From NCBI RefSeq assembly GCF_018350175.1, contig NC_058368.1, positions 84,818,001 to 84,882,000 of the forward strand: DNA of 64,000 nucleotides. The letters run 5' to 3'. Below are positions 23,582 through 58,319 of the stretch, one piece after another. Positions within the stretch are counted from its first letter, which is position 1, and the number at the start of each line of letters is the position of its first letter. This DNA is from Felis catus. Lineage: Eukaryota. Made by a program: the position numbers and the translations under genes. The notes under the pieces were generated by a model. That model did not search any database. It had not been told where the DNA came from and worked only from the letters and a program-made list of their open reading frames with translations.

Positions 23582-23737
23582 TTATCTCATCTTACATTTG
23601 GTATAGCATTTATAACAATGATATATGGATAGAAAAAGGGCTGCAATAAATGCAACCTGAAAAAATAAATGCAGTGGTGGGATGGCTTTGAATAAACAAG
23701 AGAAAAAAAACAGATAATTCATCACATATGACTTGCA
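23582..23737 (-). pseudogene. env: ERV env C-terminus: membrane anchor and cytoplasmic tail
   Basis: Manual translation SCLFKAIPPLHLFFQVAFIAALFLSIYHCYKCYTKCKMR*; it lies ~240 bp upstream of the PPT. Confidence 0.7.
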
Positions 23738-23864
23738 TTTTTAATATTTAAATCCAAGTTACTTAACATAGAGAGTAAAAATGACTTCGAATGACTAAGG
23801 AATAGAATTTAGTGATTCATCATTTACATAAAACACCCAGTGCTCATCCAAAATGTGCCCTCCT

Positions 23865-25117
23865 GGAGGGAGGAGTCAACATGGCAGAGAGGTAAGGGGA
23901 CCGGAAGTTCCCTTGTCCCTCAAACACAGCAGTATTGAGGCCAGAAGACTTGGAGTTCCAGGAATTCAGGCTATAGAGTGACAGAAACATCTCCAGGGGC
24001 CCATGGGGACACCTTGATGGGCCATCGGTGTGTGATTGCAAAGTGGGAGAGATAAAATGGGCAGTTTAGGCATGCAGAGGATGGATCTCCTTTTGTGGAG
24101 AGACAAAAGGAAGAGAAAGAGAGGGTGAGAAAATGTTGAACTGTATTTGGACAAGAGAAAAAAAAACACAGACTGGGATACAGGAAAAAAAACAAAAACA
24201 AAAACAAACAAACAGAGAAAGAACCAATTTCTAACTGCCAAGCTTTCTTCACCCTATTCACACACCTGGAGAGGAGGGGAGCCAGGCCCAGGATCAGTAG
24301 CTAGCTCCAAGAAGTAGTCAGAGAGAGCAGTCCACTCTCTTGAGTGCTGTGGGCAGAAAGCAAATAGCCATTCAAAGGACAAAAGACCTTGTATGACCCC
24401 GCTGGCCAGAGGCTCTTTGTCAGCTGGCTGGTGGAGTGACAGCACCCCAGAACTGGAGACACGGATTGGTATTCTTTAAGACATCAGGGTTTGAATCCAA
24501 GCCAAGAGGCCTGGGAGGCAGGGTAGATGGTGGAGCATAATATAGCAGCCCACTCATGCCTGCTCAGCACTGTGAAGAGCCAGAGGCCCTTTGTTGGCAG
24601 GTGGGGTGAAGTGGCATTTCCCCATAACCAGAGCAAGTGGAATAGGATCTTTTAAGATATTGGGGTTTGAATCCAGCCAAGCACCTGGGAGTCATGGGAG
24701 ACTGTGGAGCAGAGAAAAACCGGACCCCTTGAGCCCATATGGCACTGTGAAAATCCCATGAACAGAGTGGTTTCAGACACCTGGTCTGGGGAAGAGAGAC
24801 TTGGGTGTGGTCATGTTTCTCCCCATCACCAAGGTGGGTTTTGCAGAACAGACAACAGGTCCAGGGTGGAGGTGGGACCTGCCTACACCAAACCATGTCC
24901 CTCCATGCCAGGTAATTGTATATGTCACAGAACAAGATTGACACTGAAAGAACCAGACAGTCACAACTTCAGACCAATGAAGCCACTGGTCCCGAGGCAC
25001 CATCAAATATTGGTCCAGTGGTTTTGCATTCTTTGATTTGATTTCTGGTCAATTATTACTTTAGGTTTATGTTTATATATTTATGTTATATTTATATTAT
25101 GTTATGATATATTATGT

Positions 25118-25162
<45 letters not shown>

Positions 25163-28100
25163 GTGTGTTTGTGTGTGTGTATTTTTCTTCTTTTTATCCC
25201 CTTATTTCTTCCCTTCTCTGGTCTGGTTATTCTGGTTTTTGGTGTGTTTAAGCAGACTCTTTTTAACTATTATTTTTGCACCTCTTCTGTATCGCCTTTT
25301 TTTTTTTCTCTCTCTCTGGACTAAGCCATATAGTTTCTCTGATTATCTGCCTGGTCAATTGTGTTTTTTTTTTCTTTTTTTCTTTTCACTGCCCTTGACA
25401 TTTATCTCTTTCTATAGGATAAGGTCTCTTCCACCACCCCATCCTTTTAAAAAAAATTTCCAGGGATACTTCAACAAAAAATCAAAGCACAATTGGTGGA
25501 AGGTCTAAAACACCAATGCAAGTAGGGAGATAAAGCAATTAGAGTCACAACACAGAACATTAAACACACTCCAAAAACATCTCCTGAAAGGCAGGACCCA
25601 GACAGCATAAGAATCCTTTTAAATACGGAAATGCTCACAGGTGCAGGACTCATAATAAGCTATTAAAACACATAAGGGACAGAAAACTAGCCAATATGAT
25701 GAAACGGGCGATTTCTCCTTAAAATAAATTCCAGGAATAAATGACAGATAAGGATTTCCTGAAAAACGGATATAAACAATATAACTGACCAAAAATTTAG
25801 AATAATAGTCATAGGATTAATAGGTAGCTTGAAAAAAAAAGCAAAGAACAGAAGAGAATATATTGCTGTTGAGATCAAGGAACTACTAAATAGTCATAAC
25901 AAACTAAGAAATCCTATAAATGAGGTGCAAAATAACTAGATTCAGTAACAGCAGGGATGGAGGAGGAAGAGAGGAGATTAAGTTAAATAGAAGGTAAAAT
26001 TATGGAAAATGATGAAGCCAAGAAAAAGAGAAGAAAACACTAGACCATGAGACAATTAGAGAACTAAATAATTCAATGAAATGTAATAATATTCATATCA
26101 TAGGAGTTCTGGAAGAAGAAAAAGAGAGAAAAAGGGACAGAAGTTTTACCTAAACAAATTATTGCTGAGAAATTCCCTAATCTAAGGAAGGAAAAGAACT
26201 TCCAAGTCCAGGAGGCACAGAGAACTCCTTTCAGATTTAACAGGAATATCTTATCCATGGCATATCATAGTGAAACTGGCAAAATTCAAAGAAAAAGAGA
26301 AAATTCTGAAAGCAGCTAAGGACAAAACGACCCTAACTTACAAGGATAGACACATAAGAGTAGTAGCAGACCTGTCCACTGAAACCTGGCAGGCCAGTAG
26401 AATGTGGTGGGAAATATCCAATGTGAAGAATAAAAAAATATACAGCCAAGAATCTTTTATCCAGCAAGGCTGTCATCCAGAATAGAAGGAGAGATAAAAG
26501 TTTCCCATACAACAAAAACCGAAGGAGTTCATGACCACTAAACCAGCCCTGCAAGAGATTCTTAGGGGGACCTGTGAGTGGAATGCTGCAAACACTACAA
26601 AGGACCAGAGAAATTGCCACAATCATGAAACCTACAGATAACACAATGACACTAAATCCATATATTTCAATAATAACTCTGAATGTAAATGGACCCAATG
26701 CTCCAATCAAAAGACACAGGGTATCAGAATGGATTAAAAAAACAAGGTCCATCTATATGCTGACTAGAAGAGACCCATTGTCGACTTGAAGGGAACTTCA
26801 GATTGAAACTGTGGATGGAGAAACATCTATCATGCTACTGGAAGTCAAAACACAATTGGAGTAGCCATTCTTATATCAGACAAACTAGATTTTAAACTAA
26901 ATGCTGTAACAAGAGTTGGAGAAGGGCATTATATCATAATTACAGTTCCTATCCGTCAAGAAAGCTAACAATTATAAATGTTTATGCTCCCAACTTGGGG
27001 ATAACCATATATATGCATCAATTAATCACAAACATAAGAAATTTTATTGATATGAATACTGTAAGTGCAGGACACTTTAATACTTCACTTACAAGAATGG
27101 GCAGATCACCTAGACAGAAAATCGATAAAGAAACAATGGACTTAAAGATGAAGTCAAGCTTTCACTTTTTGCAGATGACATGATATTATACAGAGAAAAC
27201 CCCATAGACTCCACCAAAAACTGTCAGAAATGATACATGAATTCAGCAAAGGGGGAGGATACATAATTAATATATAGAAGTCATTGCATTCTTATACACT
27301 AATGATGAAGCGACAGAAACACAAATAAAGGAACTGATCCCATTCACAATTTCACCAAGAATCATAAAATACCTAGGGATTTTATGTTTAGAAAAACATA
27401 AAATTATGTTTTTGTTTAGAAAATGGTGCTGGGAGAACTGGACAGCAACATGCAGAAGAATGACACTAGACCACTTTCTTACACCATTCACAAAAATAAA
27501 CTCAAAATGGATAAAGGACGTGAATGTGAGACAGGAAACCATCAAAATCCTAGAGGAGAAAGGAAAAAACCTTTCTGACCTCAGTCGCAGCAATTTCTTA
27601 TTTGACACATCTCCAAAGGCAAGGGAATTAGAAGCAAAAGTGAAATATTGGGACATCATCAAGATAATAAGCTTCTGCACTGCAAAGGAAACAATCAACA
27701 AAACTCAAAGACAACCAACGGAATGTGAAAATATATTTGCAAATGACATATTGGATAAAGGGCTACTATCTAAAATCTATAAAGAACTCACCAAACTCCA
27801 GACCCAAAAAACAAATAATCCAGTGAAGAAATGGGCAGAAGACATGAGTAGACATCCAGATGGCCAACAGGCACCTGAAAAGATGCTTAACGTCACTCTT
27901 CATCAGGGAAATACAAATCAAAACCACACTGAGATATCACTTCACACCAGTTACCATGGCTAAAATAAACAAATAAGGAAGCTATAGATGCTGGAGAGGA
28001 TGTTGAGAAACGGGAACCCTCTTGCACTGTTGGTGGGAATGCAAACTGGTGCAGCCGCTCTGGAAAACAGTGTGGAGGTTCCTCATAAAATTAAAAATAG

Positions 28101-28953
28101 ATCTATAGTATGACCCAGCAACAGCACTGCTAGGAATTTACCCAAGGGATACAGGAGTGCTGATGCATAGCGGCACTTGTACCCTTATGTTTATAGCAGA
28201 ACTTTCAACAATAGCCAAATTATGAAAAGAGCCTAAATGTCCATCAACTGATGAATGGATAAAGAAATTGTTGTTTACAATGAGAAAGAATGAAATATGG
28301 CCCTTTGTAGCAACATGGATGGAACTGGAGAATGTTATGCTAAGTGAAATAAGTCACAGAGAGAAAGACAGATACCATATGTTTTCACTTCTATGTGGAT
28401 CCTGAGAAACTAAACAGAAGACCGTGGAGGAGGGGAAGGGGAAGAAATGAGTTAGAGAGGGAGGGACGCAAACCACAAGAGACTCTTAAAAACTGAGAAT
28501 AAACTGTGGGTTGAGGGGGAGTGGGAGGGAGGGGAAATTGGGTGATGGGCACTGAGGAGGGCACCTGTTGGGATGAGCACTGGGTGTTGTATGGAAACTA
28601 ATTTGATAATAAATTTCATATTAAAAAATAAAAAAAAAGTAGCAATGGCCTTAAATGATACCTTGGACCAGATGGACTTGACAGATACATTGAGAACTTT
28701 ACATCCAAAAGCAGTAGAATACACATTCTTTGCAAGTGCACATGGAACATTCTCCAAGATGGATCACATACTGTGTCACAAAACAGCCCTCAATTAATAT
28801 AAAATAATTGAGATCATACCATGCATATTTTCTAGTCACAACAGTATGATACTTGAGATCAACAACAAGAAAAAATTTGGAAAACCCCTAAATGCATGGA
28901 CATTAAAGAACATCCTATGGAAGAATACATTGGTCAGCCAGGAAATTAAAGAT

Positions 28954-29003
<50 letters not shown>

Positions 29004-32000
29004 CACACACACACACACACGCATGCACGCACACACACACAACAAAGGAAAATGAAAACAGGACATTAGAAACATTTTGAGATGCAGCAAAGACAGTCCT
29101 AATAGGAAAAGGCATTACAATCCAGGCTTATCTCAAGAAACAAGAAAAATCCCAAATACAATATATAACAGCACACCTAAAAGTACTAGAAACAGAAGAG
29201 GAACGAAACCCCAAAGTCAGCAGAAGAAGTGAAATAATAAAGATCACAGCAGAAATAAACAATATGGAATCCCAAAACAAAACAAAACAAAACAAAACAA
29301 AACAGTAGAACAGATCAATGTATCTAAGAACAGGATTTTGGAAAATAAACAAAATTGATAAACCTATAGCCAGATTTTTCAAACAGAAAAGAAAGAGAAC
29401 CATAATGATGCAATCATGAATGGAAATGGATTTATCACCACAGATCCCTCATAAATAAAAGCAATTCTCAAAGAATATTATGAGAAATTATACATCAAGA
29501 AGCTGGACAACCTGGAAGAAATGGACCAATTCCTAGACACCCACACACTACCAAAATTCAAACAGGAAGAAATAGGAGACTGAAGAGACCCATAATCAAA
29601 GAACTTGACTCAGTTATCAAAAACCTCCCAGCAAATTAGAGTCCTGGGCCATATGGCTTCCCAGGGGAATTCTACCAGACATTTAAAGCAGAGTTAATAC
29701 CTATCCTTCTCAAGCTGTTACAAAAACATTGAAATGGAAGGAAAGCTTCCAGATTCATTTTACAAAGCCAGCATTATTTTGATTCCTAAACCAGACAGAG
29801 ACCCCACTAAAAGGAGAATTACAGGCCAATTCCCCTGATGAACATGGATACAAAAATTCTCAACAAGATACTAGCAAATTGAATTCAACAGTATATCAAA
29901 AGAATTATTCACCATGATCGAGTGGGATTCATTCATAGGCTGCAGGGCTGGTTCAACATTCACAAATCAATCAATTTGATACATTACATTAATAAAAGAA
30001 AGCATAAGAACTGTATGATTCTGTCAATAGGTGCAGAAAAAGCATTTGACAAAATACAGCATCTTATAATAAAAACCCTCCAGAAAGTCAGGATAGAACG
30101 AACATACCTCAACATCATAAAAGCCATTTATGAACAGCACACAGCTAATATCATCCTAAATCAGGAAAAATGGAGATCTTTCCCCTGGTGATCAGGAACA
30201 CGGCAGGAATGTCCACTCTCACCACTGTTTTTTAACATCGTGTTGGAAGTCGTAGCATCAGCAATAAGACAGCAAAATGAAATAAAATGCATCCAAATTG
30301 GGAAAGAAGTGAAACTTTCACTTTTCACAGATGACATGGTACTCTACATGGAAAACCCTAAAGATTCCACCAAAAAGCTTCTAGAACTGATACATGAAAT
30401 CAGCAAAGTTGAATAATACAAAACAAGTGTGCAGAAATCAGTTGCATTTCTATACACAAATAATGAGGCACCAGAAAGAGAAATCAAGAAATCAATCCAA
30501 TTTATAATTGCTCCAAGAACCGTAAAATAGCCAGGAATAAACCTAAACAAAGATGTAAAAGTGCTGTATGCTGAAAACTATAGAAAACTTTTGAAGTGAA
30601 TTGAAGAAGACACAAATAAATGGAAAAATATTTCGTACTAATGGGTTGGAAGAACAAACATTGTTAAAATGACAATACTAACTAAAACAGTCTACACATT
30701 CATTGCAATCCCAATCAAAATTGCTCTGACATTCTTCTCAAAGCTAGAACAAACAATACTAAAATTTGTATGGAACCACAAAGGACCATTTATAGACAAA
30801 CATACGTTGAAACAGAAAAACAAAGTGGGAGGCATCACAATCCCAGACTTCACCTCTACTACAAAGCTGTTATCACCAAGACAGCATGGTACTGGCACAA
30901 GAACAGACACATAGACTGATGGAATAGAAACGAAAGTGTACAATTGAACCCATAAATATATGGCCACCTAATCTTTGATGAATCAGGAAAGAGTATCCAA
31001 TGGAAAAAAAAAGACAGTATCCTTAGCAAAAGGTGCTGAGAGAACTGCATAGCACCATGCAGAAGGAATGAAAGCAAAATTGAATTATTGGGACCTCATC
31101 AATATAAAAATCTCCTGCACTGCAAATGAAACAATCAACAAAACGAAAAGCAACTGATGAAATGAGAGAAGATATTTACAAATGACATATTGGATAAAGG
31201 GTTAGTATCCAAAATACATAAAGAACTTACCAAAGTCAATACCAAAATCAGATAATCCAGTGAAGAAATGGTCAGAAGACATCACTAGACACTTTTTCAA
31301 AGAAAACCTCCAGAGGGCCAACAGACACATGACAAGATGCTCAACATCACTAATCATTAGGTAAATACAAATCCAAATGGCATTGAGATACCACCTCACA
31401 TTGGTCAGAGTGGAAAAAAAAAAACTCAGGCAACAACAGATGTTGGTTGTCAAGGATGTGGAGAAAACGGAACCCTCTTGACTGTTGGTGAGAATGCAAA
31501 CTGGTGCAGCCACTCTGGAAAACAGTATGGAGGTTCCTCAAAAAATTAAAAATAGAATTACCCTTTGACACTACTAGGAATTTATCCAAAGGATACAGGA
31601 GTGCTGATGCATAGGAGCACTTGTACCCCAATGTTTACAGCAGCACTTTCAACAATAGCCAAATTATGGAAAGAGCACAAATGTCCATCAACTGATGAAT
31701 TGAGAAATAAGATGTGGTTTATATATACAATGGAAACTACTTGGCAATGAAAAAGAATTAAATCCTGACGTTTGCAACAACATGAATGGAACTGGAGGGT
31801 ATTATGCTAAGTGAAATAAGTCAGTCAGAGATAGACAAAATATGTTTTCACTCATATGTGGAACTTGAGAAACTTAACAGAAGACACTGGGGGAAGGAAG
31901 AGGAAAAATAGTTTCAAACAGAGAGGGAGACAAACCATAAGAGATCCTTAAATACAGAGAACCAATTCAGGGTTTATGGGGGGTGTGGGATGAGTGAAAT

Positions 32001-32160
32001 GGGTGATGGGTATTGAGGATTGTACTTGTTGGGATGAGCACTGGGTATTGTATGTAAACGATGAATCATAGGACTCTATCCCCAAAACCAAGAGAACACT
32101 GTATACACTGAATGTTATGTAACTTGACAATAAATTATATATATAAACAAACAAACAAAT
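23865..32160 (+). mobile_element. Full-length L1 'B' (5'UTR with ~180-bp tandem monomers, ORF1, ORF2, 3'UTR), inactivated
   Basis: 5' end GGAGGGAGGAGTCAACATGGC; ORF1 fragment 26270-26485; EN start ISIITLNVNG (~26665); RT-region fragments 29922-30191; A-rich tail at ~32160; TSD AAAATGTGCCCTCCT/AAAAAGTGCTCTCCT. Confidence 0.92.
27147..28635 (+). mobile_element. 5'-truncated L1 'C' nested in the ORF2 EN domain of L1 B
   Basis: Begins in the RT region (LFADDM); ORF 27406-27963 is the ORF2 C-terminal region; poly-A tail; 20-bp TSD (17/20 identical) at 27127-27146 and 28636-28655. Confidence 0.92.
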
Positions 32161-35100
32161 AAAAAGTGCTCTCCTAAATGGCCATCATCATTTAGCCCAT
32201 CTCCCTACCCAACACCCCACCAACAACTCTCATTTTGTTCTCTGTATTTAAGAGTCTCTTATGGTTTGTCTCCCTCTCTGTTTTTATCTTATTTTTGCTT
32301 CCCTTCTGCTTTGTTCTGCTTTGTTTCTTAAATTCCACATGTGTGAAATCATATTTTTGTCTTTCTCTGAATGACTTATTTCCCTTAGCATAATATATCC
32401 TAGTTCAATTGACATTGTTGCAAAATACAAAAGTTAATTATTTTTTATTGTTGAGTAGTATTCCATTGTATATATATATATACCACATCTACTTTATCCT
32501 TCCATCATTTGATAGGTATTTGGGATTTTTCCATACTTTGGCTATTGTCGATATTGCTGCTATTAACATTGGGGTGTATAAGCCCCTTTGAATGGGCATT
32601 TTCATATCCTTTGAATAAACTCTTAGTAGTGAAATTGCTGGGTCATAAGGTAGATCTATTTTTAATTTTTGAGGAACCTCGACACTGTTTTCTGAGCAGC
32701 TGCACCAGGTTGCATTCCCACGAGCAGTGTAAAGTGTTCCTCTTTCTCCTCTTTGCCAATATCTGTTATTGTCTGAGTTGTTAGTTTTAGACCTTCTGAC
32801 ACGTGTGAGGTAGTATCTCATTGTGGTTTTCATTTGTATTTCCTTGATGATGTGTATTTTGAGTATCTTTTCATATGTGTGTTAGACATCTGGAAATCTT
32901 TGGAAAGTGTCTATTCATGTCTCTTGCCCACTTCTTCACTGGAGTATTTGTTTTTTAGGTGTTGAGATTGATATGTTCTCTATAGATTTTGGTCACTAGC
33001 CATTTATCCCATTTTTCATTTCCAAATATCTTCTCCCATTCCATCGGTTGCTTTTTAGTTTTGCTGATTGTTTCCATCACTGTGTGGAAGTTTTTATCTT
33101 GATGAGGTCCCAGTAGTTCACTTTTGTTTTTATTTCTCTTGCCTCCAGAGACATATGAAGGTAGTAGTTGCTGAGGTCGAGGTTGTTGCCTGTTTTCTCC
33201 TCTAGGATTTTCATGGCTTCATACCTTACGTTTAGGTCTTTCATACATTTTGAGTTTATTTTTGTGTATGGTGTAAGAAAATGGTCCAGGTTCATTCTTC
33301 CTCATGTTGCTGTCCAGTTTTCTCAGCACCATTTGCTGAAAGGACTGCTTTTTTTTCCATTGGATATTATTTCCTGCTTTGTCAAAGATCAGTGACCTTG
33401 CATTTGGGGGTGAATTTCTGGTTCTCTATTCTATTCCATTTATCTATGTGTCTGTTTTTGTGCCAGTACCAGACTGTCTCAATGATTATAGCTTTGTAAT
33501 ACAGTCTAAATTCCTCAAATGTGATGCCTACAGCTTTGGTTTCTTTTTCAACATTACTTTGCCTATTCAGGGTCTTTTCTGGATGCATACAAATTTTAGG
33601 ATTGTTTTTTCTAGCTTTGAGAAGAATGCTGGTGTAATTGTTAGGGATTGCATTGAATAAGTTGATTGCTTTGGGTAGTATCAATATTTTAACAATATTT
33701 GTTCTTCAAATCCATGAGTATGAAATGTTCTTAATTTTTGTGTGGAAGAAATCCATCCATTTTCATAGCTTACTATATTTTTCAGTGTATAGATATTTCA
33801 CCTCTGGTTAAGTTTATTCCTAGGTATTTTATGGTTTGGTGCAATTTTAGTTGGGATTGATTCCTTGATTTCTCTTTCTGGTGCTTCATTATTGGTGTAT
33901 AGAAATGCAAACAATTTCTGTACATTTATTTTATATCCTGTATTTTTACTGAATTTATTTATCCATTCTAGCAGTTTTATAGTGGCGTCTTTTGGGCTTT
34001 CCACATCTGGTATCATGTCATCTGTAAAGAGTGAAAATTTGACTTCTTCCTTACTCATTTGGAGACCTTTATTTCTTTTTGTTATCTGAATACTGAGGCT
34101 AGGACTTCCAACAATATGTTGAATAACAGTGTTGAGAATCAGCATCCCTGTCATGTTCCTAACCTTAGGAGGAAATTTCTCAGCTTTTTGCCATGGAGGA
34201 TATTAGCTTGGATATTTCATATATGACCTTTATAATCTTGAGATATGTTCCTTCTATCACTACTTTCTTGAGGGTTTTTATTCAAGAAACAATGCTGTAT
34301 TTTGTCAAATGCTCTTTGTGCATCTCTTGAGAGGGTCATGTGCTTCTTATCCTGTCTTTGATTAATGTGATGCATCATATTGATTATTTGAAGATATTGA
34401 ACCAGCTTTGTATACTGGGAATAAATCCCACTTGATTGTCTTGTCATCAAGATAGTATGTTACTGGCTCAAAAACAGACACATAGATAAGTGGCACAGAA
34501 TAGATAACCCAGAAATGCACCCCCAAATGTACGGCCACTGATCTTGACAAAGCCAGAAAGAATATCCAATGGAAAAAAAAGCAAGCTCTTTTAATGTATT
34601 GCTGGATCTGGTTTGCTAGTATCTTATTGTGAATTTTTCCATCCATGTTCATCAGGGACAATGGTCTGTAGTTCTCCTTTTTAGTGGGGTCTTTGTCTGG
34701 TTTTGGAATAAAGGTAATGCTGGCCTCATAGAATGAGTTTGGAAGTTTTCCTTCCATTTCTATTTTTTTGGAACAGCTTCAAAAAATGGATGTTAACTCC
34801 TTAAATGTTTGGTGGAATTGCACTGGAAAACTATCCAGTCCTGGACTCCATTTTATTGGGAGACTTTTGATTATTGGTTCAATTTCTTTACTGAATATGT
34901 GTTTGTTCAAATTTTCTATTTTTTCCTGTTTCCATTTTGGTAGTTTATATGTTTTCAGGAATTTGTTCATTTCTTCCAGATTTCCCAATTTGTTGGCATA
35001 TGATTGCTCATAGTATTCTATTTATTGCTCTTATTTCTGTGGTGTTGGTTGTGATCTCCTTCATTTGTGATTTTATTTATTTGGCCCTTAACTTTTTATT

Positions 35101-38100
35101 TTTGATCAATCTGACTAGTGGTTTATCAATTTTGTTAATTCTTTCAAAGCACCAGCTCCAGATTTTATTGATCTGTTTTACTGTTTTGTTTTGTTTTGAT
35201 TTTTGTATCATTGACCTTTGTTCTAATCTTTATTATTTTCCTTCTTCTGCTGATTTTGAGCTTTATTTGCTCTTCTTTTCCCAGGTCTTTTAGTTCTAAA
35301 GTTAGGTCGTGTAGTTGACATCTTTCTTCCTTCATAGGAATGCCTGGATTGCTATGTACTTCCCTCTTCTGCGTTTGTTGCATCCCTAAGGTTTGGGACA
35401 GTTGTGTTTTTATTTTTATTGTCTTCCATGTAATTTTTCACTTCCTCTTTCATTTCTTTGTTAACCCATTCATTCTCTAGTAGGATGTTCTTTAATCTTT
35501 ATATACTCATGGTCTTTCCAAATTTTTTCTTGTAGTTTATTTTGAGGTTCATAGCATTGTGGTCTGAAACTATGCAACATATGATCTCAATCTTTTTGTT
35601 CTTGGTGAAGGTTGATTTGTGACCTAGTATGTGATATATTCTGGAAAGTGTTCATTGTGCACTTGGGAAGAATATGTGTTCTGCTTCTTTAGGGATAAAA
35701 TGTTCTGAATATATCTGTTAGGTCCAACAGTCCTATGTGTCATTCAAAGCCATTGTTTCCTTGTTGATTTTCAGCTTACATGATCTATCCATTGTTGTAA
35801 GTGTGATTTTGGAGTACTCTACTATTATTGTATTATTATCAATGAATGTATTTATCTTTGTGATTAATTGACTTATATGTTTGTGTATTTTCACATTGAG
35901 GGCATAAGTATTTACAATTGTCAGATCTTGGTGGATAGACCCATTAATTATGATATAATGCCCTTCTTCATCCCTTCTTACAGTCTCCATTTTAAAGTTT
36001 GATTTGTCTGATATAGATAAGGTTACTCCAGTTTTCCTTTGATTACCATTAGTGTGATAGATAGTTTTCCATCCTCTCACTTTCAATCTGAAGGTATCTT
36101 TTGGTTTAAAGTAAGTCTCCCATAAGCAGCATATAGATGAGTCTTGTTTTCTTATCCATTCTGATACCTTATATCATTTGATTGGATCATTAGTCCATTT
36201 ACCTCTAGAGTGAGTACTGAAAGATATGAATTTAGAACCATTGTGTTGCCTGTAGAATTGGTGTTTCTGGTACTGTTCTCTGTACTTTCTAGTCTTTGTT
36301 GCTTTTGGTCTGTTTTGTCTTGTCTCAATTCAAAGAGCCCCCCCTTAAAATTTCTTGCAGGGCTGGTTTAGTGGTAACACATTCCTTTAGTTTTTATTTG
36401 TCTTGGAAACTCTTTATCTTCCTTCTATTTTGAATGACAGCCTTGCTGGATAAATAATTCTTGGCTGCATATTTTTTTCTGATTCAGCACATTTGAATAT
36501 ATTCTGCCTCTCCTTTCTATCTTGCCCAGTTTCTGCGTATAGGTCTGCTGTGGACTTATTTTTTTTCTTTGTGGCTTTCATGATTCTTTCCTTGTCTGTG
36601 TGTTTTGTGAATTTGTCAATGATATGCCTTGGTGATGATCAGTTTTTCTTAAATCTAACTGGAATTCTCTGTGATTCTTGGATTTTAATGTCCGTGTCAT
36701 TCCCCAGATTAGGAAAGTTTTCCCCTATATTTCACTCACAGAAACGTTTTGCCTCTTTTTCTCTCTTCATCTTCTGGGACTCTTATGATTCGGATGTTAT
36801 TCCTTTTTAATAAGTCACTGAGTTCTCTAAATCTTGTACCGTGACCTTTTGCCTTTGTTTCCCCCTTTTCTCTGCTTCATTATTCTTCACAATTTTATCT
36901 TCTTAATCGCTGATTTGATGCTCTGCTTTGTGCATTCTTGCTGTTGTCTCATCCCTTCAAGATTGCATCACAGTTACAGCATTTTTAACTTTGGCCTCAC
37001 TAGATTTTATTTCTTTTATCTCCACAGAAAGAGAGTATCTGGAGTCTTCTATGCTTTTTTCACCCCCAGCTACCATTCTTATTATCATGGTTCTAAATCC
37101 TATTCCAGACATCTTACTTTTATCTTTGTTGATTAAGTCCCTGGCTATCATTTCTTCCTGTTATTTCTTTTGGAGTGAATTCCTTCATTTTGTCCTTTTG
37201 GAGGAAGAAAAAAATTAACAAAATAAAAAATAAATTAAATTAAAAAATTTAAAATAAAACAAAAAATAAAATAAAAGAAGCTAGATTCTTTGTGTGTTTT
37301 TGTCTTCTTGTTGAAAGAAGCTTGATAGCATAGAGAAAAAAGGAAAGGACGTTTAAAAAATGTTAAGAAAAAGTTTAAAAATTAAAAAATACATATATAA
37401 TAAACTAGAATAAAAATTTTAAACAATAAACATAAAATAAATAAAAATATATTTTCTTTTTCTATATTCAAGAAAAAGAAAAAAAGGAAGAAAAAAGAAA
37501 ACAATATAAGAAAATCAGAAGAAAAGAAAATGAACAAATAAATGAATCAGCAAACAGAATGAAATCTGAGTGACATTACATCCAGTCTCCCTTAGAAATG
37601 AAACTATGAAGCACTCTATACTCCATACAGTAAGGAGGTTGACTGACTTGTACTAAAATTCTAGGGTATGTACTTGGAAGGCACAGTTCAGTGAGGTGTG
37701 GTATAATAGCTCGGTTCTCCACTAACTGGTGCTGCTTAACTCAGTGGAGTGGGTTAGTGTAGGACACATGTACAGGAGAGGCAGAAATGGCTTCACTGGG
37801 CTCTGTAATCTCTGGTGCAGGAACTTTGAGATCTCACAGACCCATGATCAAGCACCCTTCCTTTGCCTTAGGCTTCTGTCCTCTCTTCACCTCTATCCTG
37901 TCCAGTTCCAAACTGTCTGCCTACCAGGTTGTATCTCCCTCCAGAGTTGTATCTCAGATAGGGCTGTGTTTCAAAAGCCTGCACTTCAGAGATTCCCCAT
38001 GTCTTGGACCCACACCTACTACCTGTGGGAAGGTCTTACTGAGCAATGGCCAGGTATCTGCTTGCCCCAGAAAATATTCATGTTATCATGCCCCAGCAGA

Positions 38101-38784
38101 GGTTCAGAGATTACGGCAAATCACAGCAGCCAGTCAGCACCCGTTTTGCCACACCCTGGTGTCTTTGTTCCCATACCAGCAAATGTGGTTGCTCTCCAGG
38201 GTCCTCTGGGACCTTATGGCCTCTACCAAATGTTCTCCAAGGAGGGGGACCACTTCTCTCATGTGGCACACAGACCCCTCAGACCCCGCTCCCTCCTTCT
38301 GGGGATTCACCCTACTTCCTCACCAGAGCATCGCCAGGCACTGAGTTCCAAAACTTCAGATTCTATGCTCCATGTTTATAGAATCCTGGTGATATTGAAT
38401 ATCTCTTTTTTAGTCAGTGGTTTTGGACAACAGATTTCTTATTCATTCCCCTGAGAGTGTTTTCACTCCTTCTGTCTTTCTCTCCAGCTACTTTCAGGAG
38501 GAGTGCTTTTCTTGTACAATCTACATATGCTGCAATCTCCCCCTTTCTCTCTCTGTCCTTTCTCAGTGAAAACCACTCCCTAACTTCTGTGGCTTTTCTT
38601 TCCCCCAGTTTACCTCCCCACACTGTGTGCCTGCCAAGTTCTGTGGCTCCAGGTATGCAGATTGTTGCATTAATCCTTAGACCAATTTCCTATGTATTCA
38701 AAATGGTTTGATGGTGATGTAGCTGTATTTCAGGGATGAAACAAGCTCAGGGTCTCCATGATGCTCCACTGTCTTTACTCCTGT

Positions 38785-40530
38785 TGATATTCTTGAATTA
38801 ATTGTAAAACTTGTTTTCCTCCTTTGTCAACAGTTATTTATGCTTTATGGAATGTTTGTGATAATTGATTAAAATTTAATTATATTATTAGTTATTATTT
38901 GTAACATTTTCTCTGGAAAATTGATTCCTGTAGATATTATATCTTGGGGTGTGTGCAGTTCCATTTCCCAGAGCATTTGAATATCAATACCTATGTTAGA
39001 AAAATTGTCATTAACCTGTGGTAATAGTAGTTGTGTGACAAATCCAGTTTTACACCAAATAGAGGTGAAAACACAGGAAAATACATTACAATACACGTGA
39101 AGGATTTTTATAGAGGTGTTCTGTTGCCACCGCCCCCCCCCGAAAATTTCTTTTACCAATATACCATATGTTAGATTGATCTGGTTTCATAATAATAAGG
39201 CAGGTTGTTGTGAATTCTGTACTCCTTTATTGTTCTGGACAGAGGTATATCACTTTTATCATCACAAACAACGATAGATATTCACATACAAAATGTATTA
39301 TTATGCAGGAAAGTCCATCTTGCTCCAATAGGAAGAATACACATAGAATTAATAAGCATCCCAACTACCCACTAATTGAACATCATAACTATGATTTGTG
39401 ACTAATTTATGCATAACGGCAGTGGGAGAACAATGATGTAAGTTACAAGTTCCTTTAGTAATTTTCTGTAGGTTAGGGTGACTATGTAATTTCCATAAAT
39501 TAATATTTTGGGCTGCTGCTGTTAACACAGATGACATTGATTCATTGTCAGTTTTAATACATCTGAATTAATTTATGAGATAAACCTTGTTGCCTTAAAC
39601 TGCATGTCTTTTCCCATTGCTGTGCACAGGCATTTGCTGCCATAGGGTTTTGGGTTTGGACTAGCCAATTTATCAGTTTTAAGTTATCAGCCCAGGTAGC
39701 TTTACAACATTGACTCTCATCTTGAAGTATCTACTCTAGTTTCCCCTTTTCTACAAGTTTATGTGTCTTTTCAGTATACCTTTACTTAGTAAAGGCAAAT
39801 TCTGCTTGCCCTAAAATTCCAAGTTCTACCCCAAGGCTCCCAAAGCTTGCTTTGTTCTTTGGAGCTAATATTGTTTAATCCACCATAGGTGCTATTGCCA
39901 TTGTAATCTAACAGAATTAGTACAGTTGGGTACAAATTTTGAACCCCCAAAATGTTGAGTTCTCCATGTCAGATTAATTGGGTATTAGTTACTTCTAAGT
40001 ACAATTTGGTTTGGGTGTATCAAAGGGCTTCACATAACCTTCCTGATCTTATAGTCAAATTAGTATATGGGGGAGATTGTGACCACCAAGTGTTTTTTTT
40101 TTTTCTTTCTTTCTTTTATTTTTTTAAAGGTTTTCATTCCTTTTGTTTGTTTGTCTTAATTTGTTCCATCCAAAAATCATGGCTTGTGTATACATTGAAT
40201 ATTTTGACAGCTAGGACAAGCTGCTGCTAATAGTTGTCTTTCATATTCTGCAATCTTTTGCAAGATAATTATTTAAATTTATTGAAACACAGTGATAAAA
40301 TTGTTGAATATTATAAATTGTATAGGTAGGATTTGAATTTGGTGATATTTATTTGAACATTCATCCTATCATGTGTCTCCTATAATAAATATATCCCAAC
40401 AAGTAAGCACCAAAAGTTAAAGGCAATTTGAGATATTCCATGAAGTCATAAACATGTGGTGTAAGTTGTCATTAGAGTGTATATCTGTGGTGCTCTTGCA
40501 TGTGAGATTAGCAAAAATAGCATGTAACAA
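38785..40530 (-). pseudogene. env: ERV env remnant (signal peptide, SU, cleavage site, long TM ectodomain)
   Basis: Lies between IN and the PPT. Manual translation gives MLFLLISHARA (signal-like), QRTKQ/ALGALG..GVELGILGQAE (decayed furin site plus fusion peptide, ~39800-39862), and Cys-rich segments (NIWYIGK, HVYCNVFSCVFTSIWC). Many stops and frameshifts. Confidence 0.65.
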
Positions 40531-40852
40531 GATTTTATCAGGGTGTAATGGAAAAGGGGGTGGAGATAAACATTCAGGTTTAACATCATCTAAGTTTACA
40601 GAGTTACAAACATAATGAAAAAAGAATAGGCCTGGTCCTCAATCTTGGGAGTAGATGCCTACTCAGTTGCCCTCTGCTTCTCATCCTGGTTAACAGCGAA
40701 TGTTGTTTTAGGAGGAGCCCAGTGTCAGAAATAAGAGTTGAAGTCCAATCGGGTGAAGGTTACTTTTTAAAATGAGAAACATGGGTCCATGAGTTTATCT
40801 CCTTTAAGTTGGAGGTACAGGAATATGTTAAGAGTACTTGATAATGTTCTTT

Positions 40853-40893
<41 letters not shown>

Positions 40894-41819
40894 TCAATTG
40901 GGAACTCATTTAGGAAGGAGTCAGAAATCAAAGCAGTACTTTGTTTTAGGACCTGAATTAGGCCTTGGCAAGAGGATAGAATATTCTCTTTTAATAAGGT
41001 GGGCTCATATTACCCTTCATTAAACCTCATAAGTCATCCTGTTATCATTTCGAACAGGTGAAGTTTATGTTTGCCTAAAGGAGTAGACCTGAAGCTCAAG
41101 CACACCAGGGTAGAGGTTTTGGCCATGGTAGGTTAAAAGCTTCAGTAAATTTTGTTAATTAAATTTTAATTGTGCCATTAGTTCTTCCTACCGATCCAGA
41201 AGATTGAGGATGAAAGCACAGTGAAAATGCTGCATTATTGGCCAAACATTGCATATTGCTTTGTTCTTTGAAATGGGAGCCTTTGTCACTATGTAGTTCT
41301 GAAGGAATGCTCCAATCAGGAATAATTACTTTCAGTTAATATTTTAGCTACTGTGAGGGAAGTAGCTCTCTGACAGGGAAAGACTTTGACCCAATGAGAA
41401 AACATGCACTCATAATCAAAACACATTTATATCCTTGAGTAAGCAGTAAATGAATAAAGTTGGTTTGCCATCCTTCAAAGGGACCCTTTGGGAAGGGAAA
41501 AAACCTGGAGATCCATGGAAGGCTTGTGTTTATGTCAAATTGTACACCGTTTATATAGCTTATAAGCATCTGTTGGAGAGAGTTTCCAAATGTATTGTTT
41601 TCCCCACATTACCATTTTTCAGATCCCTAATTAATTAATTGATGAAAATTTAATAAAAGGGGCATGTGGGAAGTAATAGAAACAATGTGTTTTCCATTGG
41701 CCCTTCCCATATCTGTGAGGGGTGGTCTAATTTTCTTCCTTCTTCTTCCATGGTCATTGGTTTTTGTTTTATTTTTTTTTTTTTTTCCTTAGAAGCATTT
41801 TTTTTTGTGCCTGCAAAAT

Positions 41820-42020
41820 ATTTTTTTACGTTCATTTATTTATTTTGAGAGAGAGAGAGCATGGGGGAGGAGCATAGACTGAGGGAAAGAAAGAATCACA
41901 AGCAGGCTCCATGCTGTCAGCACAGAGCCTGACATGGAGCTTGATCTCATTAATCCTGAGATTACGACTAGAGTTGAAATCTAGAGTTGGACACTTAAAC
42001 GACTGAGTCATCCAGGTGCT
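41820..42020 (-). mobile_element. CanSINE in ERV pol
   Basis: Ends GACTGAGTCATCCAGGTG; (AG)n and poly-T present. Confidence 0.9.
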
Positions 42021-43114
42021 ACAGGAAATGCTTATTTTAATTAAATGGAATTAGGATTAAAGGAACACTCAAGAATATGGGTAGACTTCAACTTTAAGGC
42101 TGCCTGTTTAACAGCTGAATCAGATAAATGGTTTCCTTTAGTTCTGTGGTGTCTGCCTTGCATGTCCAAGAATTTTTTATAATAGAAAGTTGCTTTAGTA
42201 ATTGTATAGCTTTCAGTAATTGGAATACGTGTTTTCCATTTTTAAGTTTGTCTAGTAGAGGTCAGAAATTCTCTTTGTTTCCATAGCATGCCAAAGTAAT
42301 GAGTGGGTCCAAAAGCATAATGGCTTTCACTATAAATATTAGCCATTTTACGTTTTGCTAGCTGGCAAGCCCTGATAAGAGCTTACTTAACAGTTGAGTT
42401 TACTTAACAGTTGGTAAATAAGAGCTTCCAGTAATATCAGTTAATGATGTGATAGCGTGCCTAGCTTGGTAATGTCCTTGTTCATCCTTAGATAAGACTT
42501 GTTTGGGGACCATGTTTGGTCTGTATGATCAAGAGTCATTCCCTGTAAATCATTTCCTGGTATAAGAATATAATTGGTTAACATAATGCAATCATTGCTA
42601 TTAAGGTGTGAAGTGCCCTCTGGTGTGAGTAGTAAAGTGGCAAGGTTCAGATTATGACATTGCATTAGCGTGATGTTGGTTGCAGTTAATCAGAGTAATT
42701 CATAAAAAGCAAGTTGGCTAGCAGAGAACTGTAGGAAATGATGATAATTCAGAATGGCTTCAGTTGAGGGAGTCACATAATTAAAAGACCGCTCATAATT
42801 GTTTCTTCAGTGGCTTTACAGAGGAGTGCTGTGGCAGAAAATGCCCATTAACAAGGGTGGGGTGGTGGAATCCCTTAGTTACTGAATCTTGTTGCGGCTA
42901 TAATATCCTGGTGGCCAATAGTAATCACTATGTTTTTAAGCTAATACTCATAGGGAATGTCCTTTATCTTCATGTTTAAATAGGAAAAAAAAGGTAATTT
43001 GTAGGTAAGTTGACCTAAAGCAGGGGTCTGAGTTAATGTAGACTTTAGCATTTCTATAGTTTTTCAACCTTCAGGGGTCAAGGTTATGGGGCCAGATTGG
43101 TTTAACTTTAATAG

Positions 43115-43276
43115 ATTTTTTTAAAGTTTCCTTATTTATTTGTGGGTATGAGAGAGACATAAAGAGAATCTAAAGTAGGCCCTGTGCTGTCAGTGTGGAG
43201 CCTGACACAGGCTGGACCATGAGATCATGACTTGAGCAGAAACCAAGACCTATAAACTTAACTGCCTGAGTGCCCT
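43115..43276 (-). mobile_element. CanSINE in ERV pol
   Basis: GCCCTGTGCTGTCAGTGTGGAGCCTGAC...GAGATCATGAC. Confidence 0.85.
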
Positions 43277-44626
43277 ATTATATAAAGTTTGAACTATAAT
43301 GGGAAAAATCAGGCATCCAATTTTGGCAATAGCTTATAAGCCCTATAAATCCTCTTAGTTGTCTCTTGGTTTTGGGTAAATGAAAACCCAAAATTCCTCT
43401 TATTGTTTCAGCATTTGTCAATAGGCCATCTTTTGATATCATCCTAGTTTCGTGGTATTTTACCATAGGTAAGCAAAATTGTAACTTGTCTCATAAGATT
43501 TTGTGGTCCTAAAAGACCAGTTGTTTTAACAAAATAGTGTCCTTTTGAAAATCTGTTTCTGTGTTTAAGCATAGCAGTAAGCCATCTACATATTGAATGA
43601 GAGAAGAGTGTTGAGGAAAAGTCTCATTTTCAAAATCAGCTTCTAAGATCTGGGAAAAAATATGTGGGGTTTTCACCATATCCCTGTGGCCTTACAGTCC
43701 AGGTATATTGATGACCTTCCTAGGAGAAGGCAAATGGATACTGACTATCCTTATTTGCATGAATGTTAAAAAAAGCACCACATAGGTATATTACTGAAAA
43801 ATATTGGGCATAAGTTGGTACAGCATAAAGTCTTGTGTGGGGATTAGAAACTCTAGGTTGTCTTGGCATGACGATGGTGTTTACAGCTTTCAAATCTTGG
43901 ACACATCTGCATATTTACCATAAGTTTTTTTTTAACCAGAAATATTGCAGTATTACAAGGGCAAGCACCAGGAATAAGTGTCTTTTTTACGTAGTCTAGA
44001 ATAATTGGCTAAATCCCATTTGTGGTTTTGGATTTTAATATATATTGTCAAATACTGGGCAGGTTTGGATTAATCTATAGGTATTTCATTTGGAGTGGCA
44101 CACTTGATTTTTCTTATATCACTAGAAGAAGTAAACCATAATTGTTCTGGAACCTGAGATAATAAATGTTTACTAAGTTTACAGACTTGATTAGCTTGAT
44201 TTAAATCCATAATCCTTTCAGAAATATCTTTCTGAGTTTCAATCATATTTTCTAACTTTAAAAACAATTTTCCTTTCTGTGAGAAAAAGATATGAGTATT
44301 ATATTTGTCTAAAAATCATGACAAATTAGATGGATTGGATCACAATCTACCAAAAGTAAAATATGATGTCCTGTTACATCTCTGAGTTGGAAAGTCATAG
44401 GTTTAGATTTATATACCTGAAGAGGTTGATTTGACACCCTTATCATTTGGATCATTTCTTTACCCTGAAGAAGAGGACCCTGTATCACAGTAAGGTTAAG
44501 TACAGATCATGTGTCTCCTGTGTCCATCAAAGCCTTATTAATTTCCCCTTCTATAATAATATCAAATTCTCCCAAGGTTTTGTTAAGGGTTAAGGCGATT
44601 GCCTTCTTGATTTTATCAGAGCAACC

Positions 44627-45975
44627 CTATTTTGTTTTGTTTTTTTTTTTTGATGTTTTCAAATTCCACTTCAATTTATGACACTCTCTTTTAATATGAC
44701 CTTTTTTAGAATAGTAACATGCATAATCGTAAGTTGGATTTTGATTTATCCTTGGAGTGATTTTTTCTGAGGTTTAGTTAACTGTTGAAGCTGAAAATTC
44801 ATGATCTTGGTAGGTTTAACTTTCTCTTTTTTGTTATTTTTGTGTTTTAGATGACTGATATGGAAAGGATATGAGGGCAAAGGTGACTAATGAGGCACAT
44901 TCCACATCATATTTTCTAATGACAGTAGCCAAGTCTTCATCCAAGCCTTCTGAGAGGCAGAATTTAGTAATGCATTATTTTGATGATCTTGAAAACTCAC
45001 AGGAGACCTCCCTGAAAACTTTAAATTCATAAAAATCAAACATGCATTCTCCTGGTTTATGTTTATATTGTTGAATTTTAGTCCAATTGACTTTTTTAGG
45101 GAATATGGTAGATATTGCCTGAGATAGTCTATGAACAATATATCTGCCTCTTTCTAAACCTGTTGATTCATATTTAGGAAATTCCTCCATAGGGTTTTTC
45201 CATTTCTATTTTATCAATTCATACCTTGGCTTTGCTGTTAGAACCAGTATATGTATAAGTTGCTATAAGTCATGAAAACCTGGCTTGTATGCCTTTAAAA
45301 TAAGGTCAAATTCCTGAACAAAACTTATAGGGTCCTGCAATGCTTTGGGGAGGTCCTTAGTCAGATTTTTAAGTTCTGTCCTTGTTCAGGGAGCATAAAT
45401 AAGGGTTGGTTCACCTTTCCCTATAAATGAGCTTTTAGACATTTTCCCTAAATGGAGCCGCAATAACCTTTATATCTTTGGTAGCTAGATTATGAGGCTT
45501 AGAACTTTCAGAAGAAAAAGATTGTGGGGGTAGGGTAAACAAGTCAACGTAAGAGTGCTCAGTTTGAAGCGAGTATAGAAAAGTAGGGAGAGAAGGAATT
45601 TCGGTAGCTGTTTGGGGCACTTTATCCAGTTTTTCTGTCACTTCTAAAAGTATCTAATTAGTTTCCTGTAAGGAAAACAGTTTATCATTATCTCTTTCAC
45701 AAGTTACTAAACACCAGTTAAAGAATACTTCCCATTAAGATGGTTTAGACTTATAGTTGGCTCTCTTCAGATGTGCACTCAAGAAAATCAATTTAGACAT
45801 GTCAAAAGAACCCTACTTGGACCATCTAAGGCTCAGGTTATACTTGGTTAGATCTTCCCATTTATATAATCACTTGGAGGTAGAGGATTCACGTGTGTTA
45901 CGGATTGCCAGAGTTCCAGTGAGTGGGTGTTGATTTCTTGGGTTTGTTCTACCTTTGATGGATGGTTCCCTGTTC
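44627..45975 (-). pseudogene. gag: ERV gag remnant
   Basis: MA motif LRWSK*GSFDMSKL (~45810); CA/MHR-like KIQQYKHKPGECMFDF (ORF 44975-45190); degenerate CCHC knuckle CYYSKKGHIKREC (~44680-44720); amber stop at 44627-44629. Confidence 0.85.
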
Positions 45976-46641: not shown

Positions 46642-46659
46642 AACCTGCCAACTACACCA
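46642..46659 (-). promoter_or_regulatory. Primer binding site, tRNA-Ser type
   Basis: Minus strand TGGTGTAGTTGGCAGGTT directly after the LTR CA. It is 15/18 to the tRNA-Ser complement TGGCGTAGTCGGCAGGAT (recalled), and two of the mismatches are CpG transitions. Confidence 0.8.
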
Positions 46660-47072
46660 TGAAATCTTGATGTAAAATTAGCAAAAATTTTCAGTTTTTC
46701 CCCCTTAAAAGAAAAAAAAAACAAAACAGTACTATTTGATCCCAAGTCATGACAGCTGTCCAGCATACAAAATCTTAAAAAAAAAAAAAAAGACAGTGAC
46801 CCTGAGAGAAAATGTTTAATACAGAGGTTATACATGTTCTGTTCTGTTTTGTTTTGTTTTGTTTACATCAGAGTTAGAATTTACCATGATACAAGACATT
46901 CCAGAAGTTACAAAGTTTATCTTTTGCTTTCAGTATGACAGGGTTGCAAGCTTCAGAGGAATGGGAACATAGGGAGATTTTTACTCTTATTTTTAGTTAG
47001 AAATGTTTATTTTATGTTATTTGTTAATGAAGCATATACATCATGCGTGCTCAGGGCAGAGATAGAGCCTGT

Positions 47073-47290
47073 GGGGGCACCTGGGTGGCTCACTTGTTAG
47101 AGTGTTGAACTCATGATTTTGGTTCATGTCATGGTCTCACAGTTTCTTGGGTTTGAGCCCCACATCTGGCTCTGTATTGATGGCATGAAACCTGTTTAGG
47201 ATTTTATCTCTCCCTCTCTTTCTGCTCTTCCCCCACTCATGTTCTCTGTGTCTCTCAAAATAAATAAATAAATAAAGTTAAAATAAAAAG
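47073..47290 (+). mobile_element. Older CanSINE in the 5' LTR
   Basis: GGGGCACCTGGGTGGCTCA head; diverged TSD AGAGATAGAGCCTGT/AGAAATATAGCATGT. Confidence 0.9.
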
Positions 47291-47406
47291 AAATATAGCA
47301 TGTACTTTGATGTTTGGTTAAGTCATTCTGACCTTGGTGAAATTTGAAAGTATAGCTTCTTTGAGAGCCAGGAATAGAGCCCACAGTATTAAAAGTTGAA
47401 CTTTTC

Positions 47407-47630
47407 AGGGGCGCCTGGGTGGCGCAGTCGGTTAAGCGTCCGACTTCAGCCAGGTCACGATCTCGCGGTCCGTGAGTTCGAGCCCCGTATCGGGCTCTGG
47501 GCTGATGGCTCGGAGCCTGGAGCCTGTTTCCGATTCTGTGTCTCCCTCTCTCTCTGCCCCTCCCCCGTTCATGCTCTGTCTCTCTCTGTCCCAAAAATAA
47601 ATAAACGTTGAAAAAAAATTAAAAAAAAAA
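47407..47630 (+). mobile_element. Young felid-type SINE (SINEC_Fc-like)
   Basis: GGGGCGCCTGGGTGGCGCAGTCGGTTAAGCGTCCGAC with CpGs intact; perfect TSD AAAAGTTGAACTTTTCA. Confidence 0.97.
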
Positions 47631-47945
47631 AGTTGAACTTTTCATACTCTATTTCACTTAGAATAATACTCCTTAGTTTCATCCATGTCTTTGCAAATGG
47701 CAGATTTATTTATTTTTTGATGGCTTATTGTGTGTGTGTGTGTGTGTGTCTGTGTATGTGTGTATGTGTGTTTCTCACATATTTTTAATCTACTCATCTA
47801 TAGATGGACACTTTGGCTATTTTAATAATTTGGTTATTGTATATATAATGCTTCTATTAACACTTGAATGAATCTACCTCTTTGAACTACTATTTTTGCT
47901 TTTTGGGTAAATGCCTGGTGATGCAATTGCTGGGTCATAGGATAG

Positions 47946-56480: not shown

Positions 56481-56489
56481 ATCTAAAAA

Positions 56490-58313: not shown

Positions 58314-58319
58314 GTATCA

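What the first reader, a model, noticed from the sequence alone, without database searches (positions are those of the whole stretch)
38785..40530. Gamma-like provirus carrying a non-gamma, class III/spuma-like envelope
Seen in sequence: gag-pro-pol has class I hallmarks (WxxxGSF MA motif, CCHC knuckle, in-frame UAG-G, YVD(G) RT). The env has a putative cleavage site RTKQ (a CGA>CAA CpG decay would restore RTKR) followed by ALGALG..GVELGILGQAE. About 350 codons of Cys-rich ectodomain (QCCKATW, GTCNLHHC, NIWYIGK, YCNVFSCVFTSIWC) and a heptad-like stretch come before the anchor at 23582-23737. I found no LQNRxxLD immunosuppressive domain or CX6CC. Established knowledge: gamma-type TM ectodomains are short and carry ISD plus CX6CC, whereas HERV-S-like and foamy-type envs have long TM ectodomains. 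Inference: this is an env-recombinant ERV lineage, which would also fit the tRNA-Ser PBS. It is the best candidate for something undescribed in this window.
Basis: partly seen in the sequence, partly recalled or inferred. Interest (0 to 1): 0.72.

Follow-up and report, generated by a model that had tools for sequence, protein, structure and literature searches.

The report
Cat provirus with F-protein-like envelope
This is a long-dead endogenous retrovirus in cat-family DNA whose envelope gene lacks the usual gamma-type signatures, matches unnamed intact genes in wild and domestic cats and broken copies in humans, and is predicted to fold like the fusion protein of measles-type viruses, which would make it an envelope type so far overlooked in mammalian class I retroviruses.

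Summary
A decayed minus-strand provirus (LTR, Ser-type PBS, gag-UAG-pro-pol) has a class I RT closest to the epsilon-like HEPSI3 group. Its env (about 40,684-38,785, anchor beyond a 15-kb L1 block) has a TM ectodomain of about 380 residues and no ISD or CX6CC. The env is collinear (tblastn E 2e-33) with uncharacterised intact ORFs: a 679-aa gene full-length in 8 felid species, a second 682-aa felid locus, an unnamed 814-aa family and fragments of a human family, one fused to HEPSI3-type pol. Language-model look-alikes are baculovirus F, paramyxovirus F and coronavirus S2. Foldseek ranks paramyxo/pneumovirus F in 35 of 37 listed rows, but all are sub-threshold on a poor model, and a second model gave none. 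'HERV-S-like' is wrong (HERV-S env is class I, gamma-type); 'foamy-like' fits only at fold-family level. Described HEPSI3 copies carry gamma-type env, so an env swap occurred, direction open. I found no description in ten literature searches; Dfam/Repbase could not be checked. Likely a new variant: an F-type envelope in mammalian class I ERVs, possibly domesticated in cats.

The parts
46660..47645 (-). 5' LTR, interrupted by two SINEs (about 47,075-47,290 and 47,408-47,631); outer edge approximate
   Evidence: 47,351-47,406 matches the 3' LTR stub 23,268-23,321 at 84% over 57 nt; ends in CA directly before the PBS
46642..46659 (-). primer-binding site, tRNA-Ser type
   Evidence: 15 of 18 and 14 of 18 identical to two HERV-S PBS entries typed S in Vargiu 2016 table S1
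44627..45950 (-). gag, broken (MA WxxxGSF at 45,824; CA; one degenerate zinc knuckle 44,719-44,681; UAG-G at 44,629); start approximate
   Evidence: weak MLV CA hit E 0.5; resembles the HEPSI3 Gag putein by eye
40700..44626 (-). pro-pol, broken (DTG 44,524; RT YVD 43,592; RNase H; IN), with SINEs near 43,120-43,290 and 41,820-42,020
   Evidence: 55 of 88 residues identical to the HEPSI3 Pol putein in three RT blocks counted by eye
39847..40684 (-). env SU part, broken, ending at a degenerate cleavage-site position
   Evidence: tblastn segments to residues 70-255 of the intact felid relative; same column as the polybasic site of human relatives
38785..39846 (-). env TM: fusion-peptide-like stretch and long Cys-rich ectodomain without ISD or CX6CC, broken
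23750..38784 (.). nested L1 insertions splitting env; an 8-nt word (AATATYAA) on both sides may be a decayed target-site duplication
   Evidence: L1 identity recalled from sequence features, no repeat library at hand
23560..23749 (-). end of env: membrane anchor and Cys-rich short tail
23329..23340 (-). polypurine tract
23268..23328 (-). stub of the 3' LTR, starting TG

Best explanation
This is a dead felid provirus whose gag-pol likely belongs to the epsilon-like HEPSI3 branch of class I ERVs and whose envelope is a non-gamma type, shared with intact felid ORFs and human copies, that is predicted to use an F-type (paramyxovirus-F/foamy-like) fusion fold. Shown: the layout LTR-PBS-gag-UAG-pro-pol-env-PPT-LTR, the breaks, the missing ISD and CX6CC, and collinear homology to a 680-residue type I membrane glycoprotein family (signal peptide, SU of about 235 aa, polybasic site, Gly-rich hydrophobic peptide, ectodomain of about 380 aa, one anchor, short tail). 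Inferred: in the parent virus the precursor would be cut at the basic site; the freed peptide would insert into the target membrane; the long helical region after it would form the trimeric core; Cys-linked beta domains would follow; and the heptad before the anchor would zip back to fuse the membranes, with the end of SU staying part of the fold as in F proteins. Inferred: because human HEPSI3 copies described so far carry gamma-type env, the two envelope types were exchanged in this lineage, before it reached both carnivores and primates or while it moved between them. This copy itself does nothing now.
For: Homology: (E 2e-33; 33-34% identity over 520-553 aligned positions). No gamma motifs in the window; no CX6CC before the anchor and no true ISD in 5 of 5 relatives scanned. 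No retroviral env Pfam family in 38 of 38 relatives at E up to 5. F-type signal from two different proteins in the ESM Atlas: felid ORF 0.94 to Baculo_F and Fusion_gly clusters with 201-204 of 256 features shared, 0.91 to CoV_S2; TM part of the 814-aa relative 0.90 to Baculo_F, 20 of 30 hits. Foldseek of the cropped model: 35 of 37 listed PDB rows are paramyxo- or pneumovirus F, about 230-360 columns aligned; 6 of the top 10 viral-library rows are F proteins. Predicted order of long helices then strands after the hydrophobic peptide. Backbone. The human record EAW99983 joins a pol N-terminus (44 of 52 identical to the HEPSI3 putein by eye; 44% to the window's pol at 44,162, E 2e-5) to this env, so the pairing exists in primates too. 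Described HEPSI3 env is MER70-like with ISD.
Confidence: 0.7

Rival explanations
1. No acquisition from outside: this is the inherited epsilonretrovirus-type envelope (the distinct, uncharacterised Env of walleye viruses), kept by this branch, while the sister HEPSI copies picked up gamma-type env.
For: HEPSI groups cluster with WDSV by Pol. Epsilonretrovirus Env lacks gamma hallmarks and is predicted to have a distinct structure. Gamma-type env is the type most often gained by recombination.
Against: Hogan and Johnson argue that the epsilon ancestor used gamma-type Env. No walleye or other fish env appeared among the hits or the listed rows. WDSV Env is recalled to be much longer (about 1,200 aa).
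Confidence: 0.25
2. One reading: a gamma-like provirus that took its envelope from a class III (HERV-S-like) or foamy virus.
For: Ser-type PBS as in HERV-S; long TM ectodomain; foamy Env shares the F core.
Against: Class III envs examined are gamma-type with ISD. No foamy hit. Relatives have an ordinary short signal peptide and 679-814 aa, without the membrane-spanning leader of foamy Env. PBS use is unstable across ERV groups.
Confidence: 0.1
3. The envelope is non-gamma but not F-type either: a separate class I fusion fold, the F signal being generic helix-plus-Cys-rich-strand resemblance.
For: Sub-threshold structure scores, negative results, no sequence hit.
Against: Three partly independent readouts converge on the same superfamily, and length and domain order fit it.
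Confidence: 0.15

Closest known systems
HEPSI3 (Vargiu et al. 2016, PMC4724089; PE1 epsilon-like group; Pol closest to Repbase CARERV4)
   Same: Gag, Pro and RT motifs (55 of 88 RT residues by eye versus 44 of 123 to MLV-type RT), one zinc finger, gag-pro in the same frame
   Different: HEPSI3 as described has PBS Leu/Lys and a MER70-like gamma-type env with ISD; this element has PBS Ser and a non-gamma env
Uncharacterised felid ORFs LOC109503008 (cat, 679 aa, with look-alikes in 10 felid species) and LOC123611597/LOC121033631 (682 aa)
   Same: Collinear over residues about 70-620, 33-34% identity, same cysteine and tryptophan pattern, no ISD/CX6CC
   Different: They are intact; the window copy is a separate, decayed sub-lineage (closer fragments at 48-67% exist in unnamed records)
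Human record EAW99983 (hCG1648894) and unnamed fragments of the same human-like family
   Same: Same env (38-43% to the window) and same pol type fused upstream
   Different: Internally deleted and truncated; Repbase/Dfam family name not determined
Foamy virus Env and paramyxo/pneumovirus F, coronavirus S2 (Fernandez et al. 2024, PMC11468914)
   Same: Long TM ectodomain; predicted shared F-type core
   Different: No detectable sequence similarity; no membrane-spanning leader peptide; orthoretrovirus-type gag-pol
Lokiretrovirus Env (Wang and Han, PMC7947760) and errantivirus F-type ENV (PMC13524379)
   Same: Retroelement envelope of F-like type with signal peptide, basic site, fusion peptide, coiled coil, anchor
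   Different: Reported from lampreys, fish, amphibians, reptiles and invertebrates, on RT lineages outside class I; they hit PF00523/PF12259, this family does not
Ovex1 ORF3 of birds (PMC2717909)
   Same: Conserved long (873-874 aa) env-like ORF without ISD or CX6CC; an 874-aa chordate cluster scores 0.92 and may be this protein (my guess)
   Different: Not retrieved by any sequence search here; no signal peptide reported; different Pol

Membership tests
gamma-type Env | ISD before the cysteine loop | tested here: not met
   definition
gamma-type Env | CX6CC in TM ectodomain | tested here: not met
gamma-type Env | CXXC in SU | tested here: inconclusive
   a CxxC lies at residue 146 of the felid ORFs and in the window, but no CX6CC partner exists
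gamma-type Env | Pfam TLV_coat match | tested here: not met
   0 of 38 relatives; 0 of 3
HERV-S / class III ERV | RT nearer spumaviruses than MLV | tested here: not met
   (scores only, no tree)
HERV-S / class III ERV | class I env with ISD | tested here: not met
HERV-S / class III ERV | PBS for tRNA-Ser | tested here: met
foamy virus Env | membrane-spanning leader peptide, two anchors | tested here: not met
   relatives show a short N-terminal hydrophobic stretch and one anchor; definition
foamy virus Env | sequence or structure match to foamy Env | tested here: inconclusive
   no hit; not listed, but the model is poor
F-type class I fusogens (paramyxo F, baculovirus F, S2, foamy TM) | cleavage site then fusion peptide, long ectodomain, single anchor | tested here: met
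F-type class I fusogens (paramyxo F, baculovirus F, S2, foamy TM) | shared three-domain core | tested here: inconclusive
   for; none; models pLDDT 32
HEPSI3 | Pol similarity | tested here: met
   by-eye count; no tree
HEPSI3 | one zinc finger, gag-pro frame 0 | tested here: met
   (knuckle degenerate)
HEPSI3 | PBS Leu/Lys | tested here: not met
HEPSI3 | MER70-like env with ISD | tested here: not met
epsilonretrovirus (WDSV) Env | homology to WDSV/WEHV Env | not testable with these tools
   no such sequence was returned by any search
named Repbase/Dfam family (CarERV4, PRIMAX, MER4 group) | nucleotide match to the family entry | not testable with these tools
   no repeat library available

The most novel reading that the evidence does not exclude
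An unrecognised fourth envelope type of orthoretroviruses, F-type rather than gamma or beta, circulated in placental mammals, left a multi-copy family in the human genome that motif-based ERV screens missed, and was domesticated at least twice: as a 679-aa gene kept open across cats and as an 814-aa gene, with its cleavage site and fusion peptide replaced, in another unnamed lineage.
Probability: 0.4. Interest if true: 0.88.

Novelty: new variant of a known kind. Interest (0 to 1): 0.7.

Why it matters
Reviews sort orthoretroviral envelopes into gamma, avian-gamma and beta types, leaving out only the fish epsilonretroviruses, and the foamy Env structure paper treats the F-like fold as setting foamy viruses apart from orthoretroviruses. 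A mammalian class I ERV lineage with an F-type Env would break that split and bear on where retroviral env came from. The family has no Pfam hit and no ISD, so ERV and syncytin screens built on those signs would miss it. The intact felid ORFs and the 814-aa family give natural full-length proteins on which the fold and possible host function can be tested directly.

Tried and rejected
Pfam on the window's frames: only a weak RNase H hit. Word-based protein search and PDB search with one env frame: nothing. Own genome not held, so copy number and orthology were not measured. PDB profile searches with relatives: only chance rows. Full-length AlphaFold model uninformative; VIA-align only generic helices. 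P0003 and P0012 are repeat proteins and were dropped; P0001 and P0002 (96-97% identical, likely this locus itself) were not used. Anchor comparison in the wrong frame gave nothing and was repeated in the right one. Vargiu supplement motif searches found no envelope of this family, but long sequences in those files are cut at about 400 letters, so absence is not shown. Brown et al. 2014 on primate epsilon-like ERVs is not held. No complex prediction was run. Class III donor and assembly artefact were rejected as above.

Full report
Observation. The stretch lies in felid DNA (carnivore SINE types recalled from sequence; a feline metagenome run shares words; no own genome held). On the minus strand there is a provirus: 5' LTR ending at 46,660, PBS at 46,659-46,642, gag with WxxxGSF at 45,824 and a degenerate knuckle, UAG-G at 44,629 in frame with the protease, RT with YVD at 43,592, RNase H and integrase, then env from about 40,684. 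Env is cut at 38,785 by about 15 kb of nested L1 and resumes near 23,749 with an anchor, a polypurine tract at 23,340-23,329 and a 3' LTR stub that matches the 5' LTR at 84% over 57 nt, too short to date. The gene has about 9 frame changes and at least 10 stops in aligned parts, CpG o/e is 0.09, and 3 of 3 DNA runs from separate studies carry 38,790-40,800 unchanged in one piece: an old, dead copy that is not an assembly error.

Is it an envelope, and of what family? Pfam, a word search and PDB gave nothing for single frames. phmmer over 1.84 billion representatives gave 14 hits: 2 near-identical pieces, 2 repeat proteins (dropped), 9 short fragments and one full-length protein, P0008, an uncharacterised 679-aa jaguar ORF. 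Its cluster has 11 members, 8 of them full-length (cat LOC109503008, jaguar, leopard, snow leopard, clouded leopard, jaguarundi, leopard cat, Geoffroy's cat). A second felid locus (682 aa, 85%, two species) and an unnamed 814-aa family (37%, 21 members) followed, then human-type fragments including EAW99983. tblastn lays these proteins collinearly on 40,450-38,781 (E 2e-33), and a 38-sequence profile finds 8 segments of 22-66 bits against at most 2.3 in 4 controls. The relatives are type I membrane glycoproteins with 11-14 N-glycan sites and 22-31 cysteines in the full-length forms, a basic site (canonical K-x-K-R in two of four human-type fragments shown, non-canonical in the felid ORFs, absent in the 814-aa family), a Gly-rich hydrophobic peptide and one anchor. 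None has CX6CC in the ectodomain or an ISD; the two pattern matches lie in the anchor tail of P0028 and in the SU of P0029. The window's anchor matches that of the 814-aa protein (0 of 2000 shuffles) but not measurably the felid ones. A tree of 17 natural TM pieces separates the felid, human-type, 814-aa and a fourth group of carnivore-like fragments nearest the window, with few strongly supported nodes.

Fold. AlphaFold models of the full protein and of residues 166-632 are poor (pLDDT 33 and 32). Foldseek with the cropped model finds nothing at E 0.001, yet 35 of 37 listed PDB rows are paramyxo- or pneumovirus F (best E 0.028) and 6 of the top 10 viral rows are F proteins. The full-length model gave unrelated rows and VIA-align generic bundles. 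The ESM Atlas puts the 682-aa protein next to Baculo_F, Fusion_gly (0.94) and CoV_S2 (0.91) clusters and the TM part of the 814-aa protein next to Baculo_F (0.90); shuffled proteins reach 0.9 in 4-10 of 100 cases. I put the F-type fold at about 0.8: convergent, not proven. Nothing singles out foamy Env.

Backbone. Two RT pieces score far better against MLV-type than foamy RT. The integrase piece scores best against foamy integrase; no gammaretroviral core is in that list. Against the puteins in Vargiu et al. 2016 (supplement 3, parts 6 and 7 read), Gag, Pro and RT resemble HEPSI3 most: 55 of 88 identical in three RT blocks by eye, against 44 of 123 for MLV. HEPSI groups are epsilon-like class I and their Pol is closest to Repbase CARERV4, which may be this element's family name; I could not test that. 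HEPSI3 as described has PBS Leu/Lys and a MER70-like env with ISD. The human record EAW99983 starts with a pol piece 44 of 52 identical to HEPSI3 by eye and 44% identical to the window's pol, then continues into this env. So near-identical HEPSI3-type pol occurs in humans with two unrelated envelopes: an exchange took place, and the F-type pairing is shared by primates and carnivores. The direction is open. Hogan and Johnson hold that the epsilon ancestor had gamma-type Env, which favours acquisition; inheritance of a walleye-type Env is the main rival and could not be tested.

HERV-S has a class I env, as do all class III envs in Vargiu et al., so 'class III-like' is wrong, and the Ser PBS is no support for a donor because PBS use shifts.

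Possible domestication. The 8 full-length felid proteins differ by at least 49 changes at 46 columns with no break; under assumed neutral ratios of 0.08-0.16 disabling events per amino-acid change, 4-8 breaks would be expected (chance of none 0.02-0.0004). This is biased: broken alleles are not in a protein database, lion and tiger records end before the anchor, several annotated felids (recalled) are absent, and orthology rests on contig sizes. Expression was not shown, beyond the RefSeq models. It is a candidate only.

Novelty. Ten paper searches found no mention of these loci or of an F-type env in a mammalian class I ERV. F-like envelopes are known from foamy viruses, lokiretroviruses and errantiviruses; the eLife errantivirus paper says its vertebrate ERV analysis will be reported elsewhere, and an earlier unchecked scan note describes an F-like env in a fish-type provirus. 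What I saw of each paper: passages of PMC3758190, PMC2717909, PMC13524379, PMC5753468, PMC9604959, PMC7947760, PMC11468914, PMC10536682, PMC9967133, bioRxiv 2021.11.05.467493 and 2024.10.28.620668; passages, section 18 and parts of supplements 1-4 of PMC4724089 (long sequences cut); passages and section 9 of PMC12583693; outline only of PMC13709493. Subscription papers (Brown 2014, Calcraft 2024, Cornelis 2012; recalled), bioRxiv supplements, Dfam, Repbase and gEVE were not seen and may bear on novelty.

Verdict. A real, decayed HEPSI3-like provirus with a non-gamma envelope of a family that is intact in cats and present in humans, likely F-type. New variant of a known kind; interest 0.7. If the fold and the domestication hold, 0.88.

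Noticed in passing
protein cluster P0008/P0015-P0024 (not in the window): 679-aa env ORF full-length in 8 felid species at 96.5-99.6% identity, six records on contigs of 238-244 Mb; lion and tiger records end before the anchor; the basic site is non-canonical. Candidate domesticated gene.
   Followed up: partly
protein cluster P0029-P0044 (unnamed Logan records): 21-member family of 814-aa ORFs on 3-3.6 kb contigs, 88-99% alike, 27 of 31 cysteines invariant in 10 full-length members, with hydrophilic sequence where the cleavage site and fusion peptide lie in relatives. Host unknown.
   Followed up: partly
P0066 (EAW99983, Homo sapiens) and clusters: Several distinct human-like fragments of the same env suggest a multi-copy human family; one is fused to a HEPSI3-type pol start.
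   Followed up: partly
window 1-7,900: Degenerate tandem satellite, unit about 310 bp, rich in TAACCC-like words.
   Followed up: no
window 11,510-12,496 minus: 328-aa open frame that reads like an intact olfactory receptor gene (label recalled).
   Followed up: no
window 56,470-58,330: Second ERV-like remnant with integrase-like and nested LTR-like pieces; another LTR-like piece near 52,300-53,100 (by eye).
   Followed up: no
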